From Conidiobolus incongruus B7586 (lineage: Eukaryota): 33,542 nt of DNA. Location: NCBI GenBank assembly GCA_000697335.1, contig JNEM01013695.1, positions 1 to 33,542 of the forward strand, read 5' to 3'. The translations under genes were made by a program, and so were the position numbers. The first letter of the stretch is position 1. Each line of letters begins with the position of its first letter. The notes under the pieces were generated by a model that made no database searches, had not been told where the DNA came from, and saw only the letters and a list, made by a program, of their open reading frames with translations. Positions 22,815-26,019 of the stretch are shown piece after piece.

Positions 22815-23135
22815 ATGAATCCTCTGTTTTTATTAACCTTCTTAACTAGTCTCTACACCGCTGTCTATTTCTACCAATGCCACTATAAAGGTGTTGCAGG
22901 TGTTGGTGGTACTTACGACCTGTACAAAAAATGCAAACCCTCCAGTATGTACATGTGGGAATGGTCCAACGGTGTTGGTGGTATTGCCACACTTGGCACT
23001 GGTGGCAAGCCAATTGATTGTCTCAAAAGCGGATGCAAAAAATTCAACAATCAATTGAGACGTCGTGATTGTTCCAGGTACAATAACGATTCTGAGAAAT
23101 GCGATCGTTGGTATGACAACTGGATCAATATTTAA
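22815..23135 (+). CDS. Small secreted cysteine-rich protein, 106 aa (copy 1), unknown family
   Basis: Hydrophobic signal peptide MNPLFLLTFLTSLYTA and 6 Cys. It forms a GC-elevated island, has aatcATG context and AATAAA 19 nt after the stop, and has two equal-length paralogues with many synonymous changes. Confidence 0.92.
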   Translation: MNPLFLLTFLTSLYTAVYFYQCHYKGVAGVGGTYDLYKKCKPSSMYMWEWSNGVGGIATLGTGGKPIDCLKSGCKKFNNQLRRRDCSRYNNDSEKCDRWYDNWINI

Positions 23136-23495
23136 AACCTTTTTCTAGTGCGTAATAAACTATAATTATAATACCTGATTTCACTTTATCTGTGATTATC
23201 TTAAATATCATTTATAATTGATTATACGATTGAAAATGAATATGTGTTTAATGCAATTTAAATCTAAACACATAAAAAATTAAAATAATTATTTGTTAAT
23301 TTTGGCAATATATACATTACTCATGATTGAAAGTTCACTATATGATTGATATTAATAAATATTTGTCCCTCCATCAAAGGTTGAAAAAGCTGAAACCTTT
23401 GCAGGTGGGATTCTAGAATTTTTTGAAGCATATCATATTTTTATTATATCAAACTTTGATAATCTTGGGGTAATCACATACAAAAAAAAGTCTCA

Positions 23496-23895
23496 AAAAG
23501 TCAATTTTTTGAGTTAATCTCGTTCAAGTTAGTGTGGACCACATTTTATTAATTAAATGAGATTTTTAGTTTGGTTAATCAATTTGTATTCAGATAATAA
23601 GCATTAGAAATCCTATAATGAGAATTTCTATTATTAAATTTTCACTCTTTTTAAATTAAAACTTTGAAAAAAATGTATAATAAACTTCAAAAATAAAAGA
23701 AATAAGCATTAAATTATGATAATGTAAAGGTGTTTATATATAAATCAATATTGTGTATATAGTCATTAATTAACTTTAAAAATATACAATTATGTTATTT
23801 ATATGTATGATGAAATAATTTTGGTCATATGAAATGGTTTACATTAATTAATAAACCCACCCATATTAAACAAACATTGGTTTTTTGATATAAAA
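23496..23895 (+). promoter_or_regulatory. Putative promoter of small secreted protein copy 2
   Basis: AAAAGTCA 23496, ATTAATTAAATGAGAT 23548, GTCATATGAAAT 23824, TATAAAA 23889. Confidence 0.55.
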
Positions 23896-23944
23896 AATTG
23901 AATTTGTAAAATAATTGAGACAAAATAAAATTAATTTGATAATC

Positions 23945-24265
23945 ATGAATCCTTTATTTCTATTAACCTTCTTAACCAGTCTCTACACTGCTGTCTACTT
24001 CTACCAATGCCACTATAAAGGTGTCGCTGGTGTTGGTAATACTTACAACTTGTACAAGAAGTGTAAACCTGCTGATCACTGGATCTGGCAGTGGTCCAAC
24101 AATATTGGAGGCATCGCTACTGGTGGTACTGCTGGTGCACCCATCGATTGTCTCAAGAAGGGATGCAAGGGCTACAACAACGAATTGAGACGTCGTGATT
24201 GTGTCTGGTACAATAACAGCAAGGACAAATGTGACGGCTGGGATGGCGGCTGGTTGACTGTTTAA
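23945..24265 (+). CDS. Small secreted cysteine-rich protein, 106 aa (copy 2)
   Basis: The true start is the ATG at 23945, with the same aatcATG context and length as the paralogues; the track's TTG extension from 23915 is an artefact. Signal peptide, 6 conserved Cys, AATAAA at 24284. Confidence 0.92.
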   Translation: MNPLFLLTFLTSLYTAVYFYQCHYKGVAGVGNTYNLYKKCKPADHWIWQWSNNIGGIATGGTAGAPIDCLKKGCKGYNNELRRRDCVWYNNSKDKCDGWDGGWLTV

Positions 24266-25242
24266 AGCACATCAACGAATTATAATAAAAAAGTTTTACA
24301 AAACCATATTTCTAAATTATGAAGACTATCGCAATTATACAATTCAATTATATTCAATATTCTATTTAATTTTTCTTTAAATTATTATTATAATTATTAT
24401 TTTGATTTTTTTACTTTAAATATTAAATAAAATAACTATGTTACCGGTTAGGAACTAATTTTAATTATATAATGGTTTTATGAATAATAGTTATTGATAA
24501 AATAATACATATCTTTATTAATATAAAAAACAAAAAATTATATTCCATTATTAAAATATAACCATATATTTATCAAATAAATATCATTTCATCTAATCGA
24601 AAATACTGTTCAAAAAATAAGGGACAGAATACAAGACTAATTTTCTAGTTAAATGAGATTAATTTGTGACTTTTAAATTTGAATTTAATACTTATATTTA
24701 ACATATATAGTTTTAGGTGAAATATTTTAAAAATACAAGTTTAAGAAAAAAATTATATAATAATTTTAATTAATATTAATTTTAATTAATATTAATTTTA
24801 AATAAAAATTATAATTTTTATTAAATATATCTATAAAATATTTTATTAATTTTGAACTTAAGAATAATTAAATAAATTTTAATTTACTCATATTAAAATT
24901 TTGAAATATTATTTTTTGTACCGGTAAAACTAAGTAAAATATTATTAATATATGCTATTTTAAATTATTTTTTATCTCCCTTTACATGTAAAATGAATCA
25001 AATATGATATCATTAGAGTTCATCAAATAACCATAATAAAAAATATATCCAATACTCACTTTTCATTTTATGAGAGCATATATTATATAATTCAAAGTAA
25101 TATTTCGGGATACTTAATCAAATAGTTTATCCTCAAAATTTAGTATTTTGAGGTTAGTCATAAATTCAGATGCTGTTCCTGTAATTTCTTTATTAATATA
25201 CAATTGGATATTCTTTAAAAGTAAAGAATTTAAAAATTCTAT

Positions 25243-25649
25243 AAAAGTCAAAATTGTTTAATATAATCCAGTATTTGATCATTGATGTAAATCGTATATT
25301 AATTAAATGAGATTTTTAGTTTAGTTAATCAATTTGTGCTAAAGTGAATTAATTCAGATATTTTATTAAAAATGCTTATAATTTATTATTTATTCTTCAA
25401 ATAACTAAAATTAAAAACTATTTTATAGTGAAGTGTGTTAATAAAAGAAAAAATTAACAAATTATTCATAATAAATATATTCAATATTATTTATAAGTCA
25501 TTTTTTTGTAAATTAGTTTATTCATTATTTTACATTACAAATTTAAAATATTATTCATTATGACTAAATCAAATTTGTCATGTGAAATAATTCGAACAAA
25601 TTAATTTATCCAACCACGATAATTTTAATTGAATAATTTAGTATATAAA
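25243..25649 (+). promoter_or_regulatory. Putative promoter of small secreted protein copy 3
   Basis: AAAAGTCA 25243, ATTAATTAAATGAGAT 25298, GTCATGTGAAAT 25577, ATTAATTTATCCAACCAC 25600, TATATAAA 25642. Confidence 0.6.
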
Positions 25650-25698
25650 TAAGTTATTTCGAAATTATTTTACTCAAGATTCAATCAAGTTTATAATC

Positions 25699-26019
25699 AT
25701 GAATCCTTTATTTCTATTAACCTTCTTAACCAGTCTCTACACTGCTGTCTACTTCTACCAATGCCACTATAAAGGTGTCGCTGGTGTTGGTAATACTTAC
25801 AACTTGTACAAGAAGTGTAAACCTGCTGATCACTGGATCTGGCAGTGGTCCAATAATATTGGAGGGCTTGCTACTGGTGGTATTGCTGGCAAGCCAATTG
25901 ATTGTCTCAAGAAAGGATGCAAGGGCTACAACAACGAATTGAGACGTCGTGATTGTGTCTGGTACAATAACAGCAAGGACAAATGTGACGGCTGGGATGG
26001 TGGCTGGTTAACTGTATAA
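25699..26019 (+). CDS. Small secreted cysteine-rich protein, 106 aa (copy 3)
   Basis: Differs from copy 2 at 3 aa (GGLATGGIAGK vs GGIATGGTAGA). Signal peptide, 6 Cys, AATAAA at 26037. Confidence 0.92.
   Translation: MNPLFLLTFLTSLYTAVYFYQCHYKGVAGVGNTYNLYKKCKPADHWIWQWSNNIGGLATGGIAGKPIDCLKKGCKGYNNELRRRDCVWYNNSKDKCDGWDGGWLTV

What the first reader, a model, noticed from the sequence alone, without database searches (positions are those of the whole stretch)
22815..26019. Tandem triplet encoding an unrecognised secreted, cationic, 6-Cys, Trp/Tyr-rich miniprotein (candidate toxin, antimicrobial or effector)
Seen: three intronless 106-aa genes with an identical signal peptide and a ~90-aa mature region. 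Cys spacing is invariant (C22, C40, C69, C74, C86, C96), there are two Gly-rich segments and Trp clusters (WIWQW; GWDGGW), and net charge is about +5 to +6 by hand count. I cannot match this Cys pattern to hydrophobins, PAF/AFP antifungal proteins, CSab defensins or CBM1. Inference: a new disulfide-bonded family binding membranes or carbohydrates, with copy 1 a diverged specificity variant.
Basis: partly seen in the sequence, partly recalled or inferred. Interest (0 to 1): 0.72.

Follow-up and report, generated by a model that had tools for sequence, protein, structure and literature searches.

The report
Conidiobolus killer-toxin-like secreted miniprotein family
Three neighbouring genes of a fungus that is likely a Conidiobolus relative encode small, positively charged, likely secreted six-cysteine proteins whose only relatives found lie beside the same neighbour gene in Conidiobolus-type genomes; weak structural clues suggest they would fold like the KP6 fungal killer proteins and would likely act against competing microbes.

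Summary
The triplet is real: three intronless 106-codon genes with Cys at 22/40/69/74/86/96, net charge +6/+5/+6, and purifying selection (dN/dS 0.28 and 0.09). It is not a true orphan. Conidiobolus coronatus CONCODRAFT_6196 (42% identical, same six Cys) and one unnamed protein are relatives, each apparently beside the orthologue of the window's neighbouring P450. The host is therefore likely a Conidiobolus-type fungus. At least three further copies or haplotypes lie outside the window in the same DNA. No Pfam or PDB sequence match.

Fold: my AlphaFold2 models failed (pLDDT 42). The ESM Atlas model of the orthologue is confident (pTM 0.82); its neighbours are BAS4 clusters (a KP6-fold effector family) and small alpha/beta sandwiches, all below the tool's own bar. 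This agrees with a beta-alpha-beta-beta-alpha-beta guess noted beforehand.

Best reading (0.4): a KP6-like antimicrobial protein with an extra disulfide-closed tail. KP6 membership is not shown.

The parts
22815..23135 (+). Copy 1: intronless gene, 106 aa, six Cys; likely signal peptide residues 1-16 (22815-22862)
   Evidence: 42% identical to C. coronatus KXN71167.1 over 107 columns
23945..24265 (+). Copy 2: intronless gene, 106 aa
25699..26019 (+). Copy 3: intronless gene, 106 aa, 103 of 106 residues identical to copy 2; first 155 coding bases identical to copy 2, all 15 differences lie after them
22688..22699 (+). Upstream motif GTCATGTGAAAT, 127 nt before the ATG of copy 1 (candidate shared promoter element)
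   Evidence: inside repeat family D2; motif chosen after seeing the copies, function untested
23824..23835 (+). Upstream motif GTCATATGAAAT, 121 nt before the ATG of copy 2
25577..25588 (+). Upstream motif GTCATGTGAAAT, 122 nt before the ATG of copy 3
18438..19955 (+). Neighbouring cytochrome P450 gene (two exons inferred); synteny marker, no functional link shown
   Evidence: Pfam p450; best hit C. coronatus KXN71166.1, 80%; second exon inferred from inverted repeat I2
12656..14170 (-). Inverted paralogue of the same P450 (85% complementary over 1106 nt)

Best explanation
The three genes encode a conserved family of small cationic six-cysteine proteins of a likely Conidiobolus-type fungus that are likely secreted, are predicted (weakly) to fold as a KP6-like alpha/beta sandwich, and would most likely act as antimicrobial killer-type proteins against competing fungi or bacteria. 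Shown: real genes under purifying selection; relatives with the same six Cys; local tandem expansion. Inferred: conserved position beside a P450 (from accession order and contig length); signal peptide cleaved after Ala16; a roughly 10-kDa monomer with order beta1 (17-23), helix 1 (33-41), a variable central hairpin (45-60), helix 2 (66-77), beta4 (79-86) and a Trp-bearing tail; likely disulfides C22-C74 (the KP6-type beta1-helix 2 bond), C40-C69 and C86-C96. The cationic, aromatic surface would bind anionic wall or membrane components of target cells and stop their growth. The variable loop 24-32, hairpin and tail would tune the target range among paralogues.
For: Purifying selection and Cys invariance. 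Orthologue P0001 = CONCODRAFT_6196 (E 4.4e-23), named 'Secreted protein' by UniRef, with Ser-rich leaders ending VQS|LY and TQS|VY that align with YTA|VY. All five members are cationic (+5 to +10). The ESM Atlas model of P0001 is compact and confident (pTM 0.82, pLDDT 0.85). Feature neighbours at ranks 2 and 3 are clusters carrying Pfam BAS4 (15% of 138 and 77% of 71 members; scores 0.84, 0.83). Structure neighbours include two small fungal proteins (TM 0.49/0.57, 0.48/0.51) and clusters labelled HMA, ACT and GGDEF_2; that these share a ferredoxin-like topology is recalled knowledge. BAS4 is a KP6-fold protein in PMC12382754 section 2.7. The KP6 topology guess was written. Family-averaged periodicity gives strand 17-29, helix 33-43, helix 65-77, strand 77-85. 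The first-to-second Cys gap is 18 here and 17 in Zt-KP6-1 (C26, C43). Zt-KP6-1 is a monomer that inhibits fungal growth.
Against: All Atlas scores are under the tool's bar: below 0.9 and 163-165 shared features (under 170); shuffled proteins reach 0.8 a third of the time; TM by query is only 0.40-0.57; family labels of the aligned parts were marked 'name no family'; 3 of the 10 structure rows have no such link. The window's own copy 2 gave no usable Atlas hit. Both AlphaFold2 models have mean pLDDT 42.3, so the topology was never seen directly. Residues 45-59 show helical rather than strand periodicity (alpha moment 1.15-1.54, beta 0.7 or less). The second KP6 disulfide (helix 1 to beta3) has no Cys in the predicted beta3 here. 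A KP6 fold does not fix function: several members suppress plant defence or chaperone other effectors. Expression, secretion and activity are untested. Tyr14 at the -3 position is atypical for signal peptidase (established rule).
Confidence: 0.4

Rival explanations
1. A host-directed effector or cytotoxin of an insect pathogen: secreted during infection and acting on insect cells (for example haemocytes), whatever its fold.
For: The nearest named organism, C. coronatus, is an insect pathogen with haemocyte-damaging secreted proteins (coronatin-1 and -2; passages). Lineage-restricted, expanded small secreted protein families are typical of effectors. KP6-fold proteins often act on hosts.
Against: No sign of positive selection (dN/dS at most 0.37). 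One annotated member found in C. coronatus NRRL 28638. The predicted mature mass of 10.9 kDa for the orthologue does not match the recalled 14.5 kDa of coronatin-2; that paper was not held, so identity could not be tested.
Confidence: 0.25
2. A surface or carbohydrate-binding protein (spore-coat adhesin, chitin or glucan binder) with a different or new fold.
For: Invariant aromatics Y18, F19, W48, Y89, W99, W103 and cationic charge suit glycan binding. The fold evidence for KP6 is weak.
Against: No match to any lectin or carbohydrate-binding family in Pfam. The Atlas leads point to an alpha/beta sandwich of fungal effectors.
Confidence: 0.2
3. A Kex2-processed precursor: the invariant Arg82-Arg83 is cut, giving a four-Cys part (17-83/84) and a roughly 22-residue C86-C96 Trp-rich peptide, as killer toxins are cut into subunits.
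For: L81-R82-R83 is invariant and is the only dibasic site shared by all five members. The six Cys would divide 4 + 2.
Against: The Atlas model is one compact domain (pTM 0.82) with alignments running to residue 96-108. Residues 77-85 have strand periodicity, so the site may be part of the sheet.
Confidence: 0.1

Closest known systems
CONCODRAFT_6196 (KXN71167.1, UniRef100_A0A137P822), hypothetical secreted protein of Conidiobolus coronatus NRRL 28638
   Same: 42% identical to copy 1 over 107 columns; Cys at the same six positions; cationic; accession next to that of the orthologous P450 KXN71166.1, and both on a contig of 139,028 bases.
   Different: One annotated member found there against three in tandem here; 7 Gly against 11-13; net charge +8; uncharacterised (no paper found by accession).
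KP6-fold proteins: UmV-KP6 alpha/beta, Zt-KP6-1, BAS4, AvrLm6, Ecp28 (PMC12382754; abstract, sections 2.1, 2.7, Discussion, supplement 10 and part 1 of 2 of supplement 3 read)
   Same: Size, likely secretion, Cys in the first strand with a second Cys 17-18 residues later in helix 1, predicted order strand-helix-(hairpin)-helix-strand; BAS4 clusters are near neighbours by features.
   Different: No sequence similarity detected; six Cys with no Cys in the predicted beta3; an extra C86-C96 Trp-bearing tail. None of the 47 KP6 cluster representatives seen is from Zoopagomycota (42 Ascomycota, 4 Basidiomycota, 1 Mucoromycota). The fold match is not established.
Lineage-specific small secreted proteins of zygomycetes (PMC9391592; passages read)
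   Same: Small, likely secreted, no Pfam match, confined to close relatives. That paper counts 2,222 of 3,066 shared small-secreted-protein groups without Pfam similarity, so the general kind is common.
   Different: This family now has a structural lead and a synteny anchor.

Membership tests
KP6-fold killer/effector superfamily | Secreted protein shorter than 180 residues | tested here: inconclusive
   Length met (106 aa). Secretion inferred from a hydrophobic leader, leader alignment and a UniRef label on the orthologue; no predictor or experiment.
KP6-fold killer/effector superfamily | Topology beta1-H-beta2-beta3-H-beta4, four-stranded antiparallel sheet with two antiparallel helices on one side | tested here: inconclusive
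   Periodicity supports beta1, both helices and beta4 but not the hairpin. The Atlas neighbours agree at lead level. My own models were too poor.
KP6-fold killer/effector superfamily | TM-score above 0.5 to 4GVB-A or 6QPK-A | tested here: inconclusive
   Only pLDDT-42 models could be searched; the confident Atlas model could not be compared with these structures.
KP6-fold killer/effector superfamily | Disulfide from beta1 to helix 2 | tested here: inconclusive
   C22 lies in predicted beta1 and C69/C74 in predicted helix 2, so the bond is possible; pairing not observed.
KP6-fold killer/effector superfamily | Disulfide from helix 1 to beta3 | tested here: inconclusive
   C40 fits helix 1 (gap 18 against 17), but no Cys lies in residues 41-68; on my register the partner would be C69 at the start of helix 2. 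The register is unverified.
KP6-fold killer/effector superfamily | Antifungal activity (shown for UmV-KP6 and Zt-KP6-1, not for all members) | not testable with these tools
   Needs an assay.
Any Pfam family (hydrophobins, PAF/AFP, defensins, CBM1, CAP and others) | Profile match above the gathering threshold | tested here: not met
   0 families for the three copies; for five mature sequences only Trefoil E 0.71 and zf-CCCH_10 E 2.7, both at chance level. Whether BAS4 (PF28414, Pfam 38.1) is in the library copy was not checked.
Coronatin-2 of C. coronatus | Same protein sequence or mass | not testable with these tools
   Paper not held; no sequence available.

The most novel reading that the evidence does not exclude
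This is the first KP6-fold killer-protein family in Zoopagomycota: a six-cysteine variant with an added disulfide-closed Trp tail, expanded into a small arsenal in an insect-associated fungus. It would show that the KP6 fold either predates the split of Zoopagomycota from other terrestrial fungi or was acquired by transfer, and it would give entomophthoralean fungi a protein weapon for defending cadavers or soil against microbes, or against insect cells.
Probability: 0.35. Interest if true: 0.65.

Novelty: new variant of a known kind. Interest (0 to 1): 0.45.

Why it matters
Secreted weapons of Entomophthoromycotina are barely characterised at sequence level. If the fold lead holds, this extends a major fungal killer/effector fold to a phylum absent from the cluster list of the broadest inventory seen. 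It also offers a small, stable, easily expressed candidate antifungal with natural paralogue variation. The novelty is tempered: that list already has a Mortierellomycotina cluster and a Metarhizium cluster, and its full member lists sit on an outside website that I could not see, so the C. coronatus protein may already be among them. If the lead fails, it is one of many orphan small secreted protein families of zygomycetes.

Tried and rejected
Sequence searches without a hit: word search with copy 2 alone (0 of 6 candidates); PDB sequences (0 for copy 2; 2 chance hits at E 0.28 and 0.53 for the profile); metagenome, viral and prokaryote contigs (0 confirmed of 195, 127 and 32 pattern matches); plasmids. 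None of the three copies or two P450 fragments is in the 15-billion collection as an exact sequence.

P0002 (E 1.3e-8) was dropped: a 1253-aa low-complexity repeat protein without the Cys pattern.

Fold searches with my two pLDDT-42 models gave nothing meaningful: best Z 3.4 at rmsd 7.0, no Foldseek match, no Z of 2 or more. They neither support nor exclude KP6. The viral structure library was not searched.

Complex prediction of copy 1 with copy 2 (a KP6 alpha/beta-like pair) was not available, so a two-component mode is untested.

No RNA holder was listed for the stretch; this is no evidence on expression. Runs X5 and X7, with the same species label, laid nothing (no proof of absence). No whole genome is held, so copies outside the window could not be read in full.

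Assembly artefact as the source of the triplet was rejected (divergent copies, unique flanks, bridging contigs).

Literature: no paper holds the orthologue's accessions. Listings for Conidiobolus + small secreted + cysteine-rich (1 paper), KP6 + Zoopagomycota (2), KP6 + killer + Entomophthor (1) and Conidiobolus + killer toxin (2) show no title on such a family; only the paper was opened (passages). A term search of all 21 supplements of PMC12382754 found no Conidiobolus or Zoopagomycota entry. The DUF5948 lead gave one paper, not opened. Earlier scan findings held nothing on this family.

Full report
Observation. The window holds three intronless 106-codon ORFs on the + strand at 22815-23135, 23945-24265 and 25699-26019, GC-rich islands in AT-rich spacers. 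Synonymous change exceeds amino-acid change: dS/dN 0.74/0.21 for copies 1 and 2, and 0.18/0.016 for copies 2 and 3, so these are genes under purifying selection. A 12-base motif lies 121-127 bases upstream of each ATG (3 exact matches and 1 with one mismatch in the window; chosen after the fact, so suggestive only). Copies 2 and 3 are identical over their first 155 coding bases and differ at 15 places after that. This likely reflects gene conversion, though assembly collapse of that part is not excluded.

Host and context. The neighbours are two inverted P450 genes, a rhodanese-domain gene, an intron-rich gene with a weak HORMA hit and a 2912-codon repeat-like frame. Of 34 P450 homologues, the 9 that carry an organism name are all Conidiobolus coronatus, the best at 80% identity. 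The window is therefore likely from a Conidiobolus-type fungus (Entomophthoromycotina, Zoopagomycota), not from the C. coronatus reference strain.

Relatives. A profile of the three copies run over 1.84 billion representatives gave 2 hits at E up to 0.001. P0001 (E 4.4e-23) is C. coronatus CONCODRAFT_6196, KXN71167.1; P0002 is a low-complexity false hit. A second profile search found P0001 and P0038, 2 of 42 candidates; it covered only lengths 58-189, so fused forms were seen only through. I infer conserved synteny in three genomes, from accession order and contig length rather than from read DNA. In the five-member alignment 37 of 106 positions are invariant, clustered in 17-23, 33-42, 66-77, 78-86 and the KCDxW...W tail; 24-32 and 43-65 are variable.

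Copies outside the window. Contigs of run X1 (one sample, possibly the source) include one that lies on copy 1 with at least 26 listed differences, 14 at third codon positions, the only one in a Cys codon being silent; it matches copy 2 at only 9 and copy 3 at 11 of them. At place 25794 three contigs carry a letter that none of the three window copies has. So at least three further copies or divergent haplotypes exist in this DNA. The table was cut (101 rows not shown), so they cannot be read in full.

Fold. There is no Pfam or PDB sequence match. From the pattern of residues I noted a beta-alpha-beta-beta-alpha-beta, KP6-like guess. Two AlphaFold2 runs failed (pLDDT 42.3 each), and their fold searches are uninformative. 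The ESM Atlas holds a confident model of P0001 (pTM 0.82, pLDDT 0.85). By features its neighbours are an unnamed Ascomycota secreted cluster (0.84), two BAS4-bearing clusters (0.84, 0.83) and a DUF5948-bearing cluster (0.80). By structure the ten rows have TM by query 0.40-0.57 and include two small fungal proteins and five clusters labelled HMA, ACT or GGDEF_2. Every score is under the tool's bar, and the window's own copy 2 gave no usable hit, so this is a lead. Hydrophobic moments on the family alignment (with Trp and Tyr set more hydrophobic than the Kyte-Doolittle scale) support strand 17-29, helix 33-43, helix 65-77 and strand 77-85, but give helical rather than strand periodicity at 45-59; both poor models put a short strand at about 47-51. 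I put the KP6-like fold at about 55%.

Comparison with KP6. PMC12382754 (abstract, sections 2.1, 2.7 and Discussion, supplement 10, part 1 of 2 of supplement 3, and a term search of all 21 supplements) defines the fold by topology, by TM above 0.5 to 4GVB or 6QPK, and by two helix-to-sheet disulfides. It lists BAS4 as a member and shows Zt-KP6-1 to be a monomeric antifungal. Here C22 and C40 sit like C26 and C43 of Zt-KP6-1, but there is no Cys in the predicted beta3, and C86-C96 would close an extra tail. PMC9632046 (passages) gives two to four disulfides for KP6-like proteins, so three is within range. PMC12382754 and PMC10462633 (passages) say the fold is absent from animal pathogens, yet the former's own list has a Metarhizium cluster and a Mortierellomycotina cluster; none of the 47 representatives seen is from Zoopagomycota. 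Its member lists are on an outside site that I could not see. Membership is therefore inconclusive: the family likely works like a KP6-type protein, but I do not file it as one.

Mechanism. Shown: genes, selection, family, tandem expansion. Inferred: secretion with cleavage after Ala16; a compact three-disulfide monomer of about 10 kDa; a cationic, aromatic surface that would bind anionic walls or membranes of competing microbes and arrest their growth; variable loops that would tune targets. Confidence 0.4. Rivals: an insect-directed effector (0.25; coronatins known from passages in PMC12387763 and PMC9670544; the primary paper was not held), a glycan-binding surface protein (0.2), a Kex2-split precursor (0.1). 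PMC13127573 was opened for term passages only and gave nothing beyond a citation.

Verdict. This is an undescribed Conidiobolus-restricted family of a common general kind (PMC9391592, passages) with a specific, cheaply testable structural lead. Interest 0.45; 0.65 if the KP6 fold in Zoopagomycota is confirmed.

Noticed in passing
window 3-8738 (-): An open frame of 2912 codons running off the window's left end, built of long degenerate helical-looking repeats, with a hydrophobic leader near its start; only a weak Pfam hit (PAS_GdpP, E 0.005, below cut-off). Possibly a giant secreted or surface protein.
   Followed up: partly
window 12656-14170 (-) and 18438-19955 (+): Two head-to-head P450 paralogues, 85% complementary over 1106 nt, each with one inferred intron near the 3' end.
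   Followed up: partly
window about 10760-11266 (+): Intron-containing rhodanese-domain gene (Pfam E 1e-4); a Cdc25-like phosphatase by recalled resemblance.
   Followed up: partly
window about 29492-30762 (+): Intron-rich gene with a weak HORMA hit in 1 of 6 exon pieces scanned (E 0.008); Rev7/MAD2B-like by recalled resemblance.
   Followed up: partly
window 27166-27579 and 32764-33192: Inverted copies of a roughly 430-nt non-coding element, 78% identical, enclosing the HORMA-like gene; possibly copies of a small transposon.
   Followed up: no
window 22910-23600 (laid contigs): The contig carrying the copy-1-like paralogue continues with patches of similarity to the spacer between copies 1 and 2, and a 266-nt bubble at 23569-23834 has 38 differences; this suggests a second, diverged version of the array or a divergent haplotype.
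   Followed up: partly
window 23939-24099 and 25693-25853: Copies 2 and 3 are identical over 161 nt around the start while all 15 coding differences lie downstream; likely gene conversion.
   Followed up: partly
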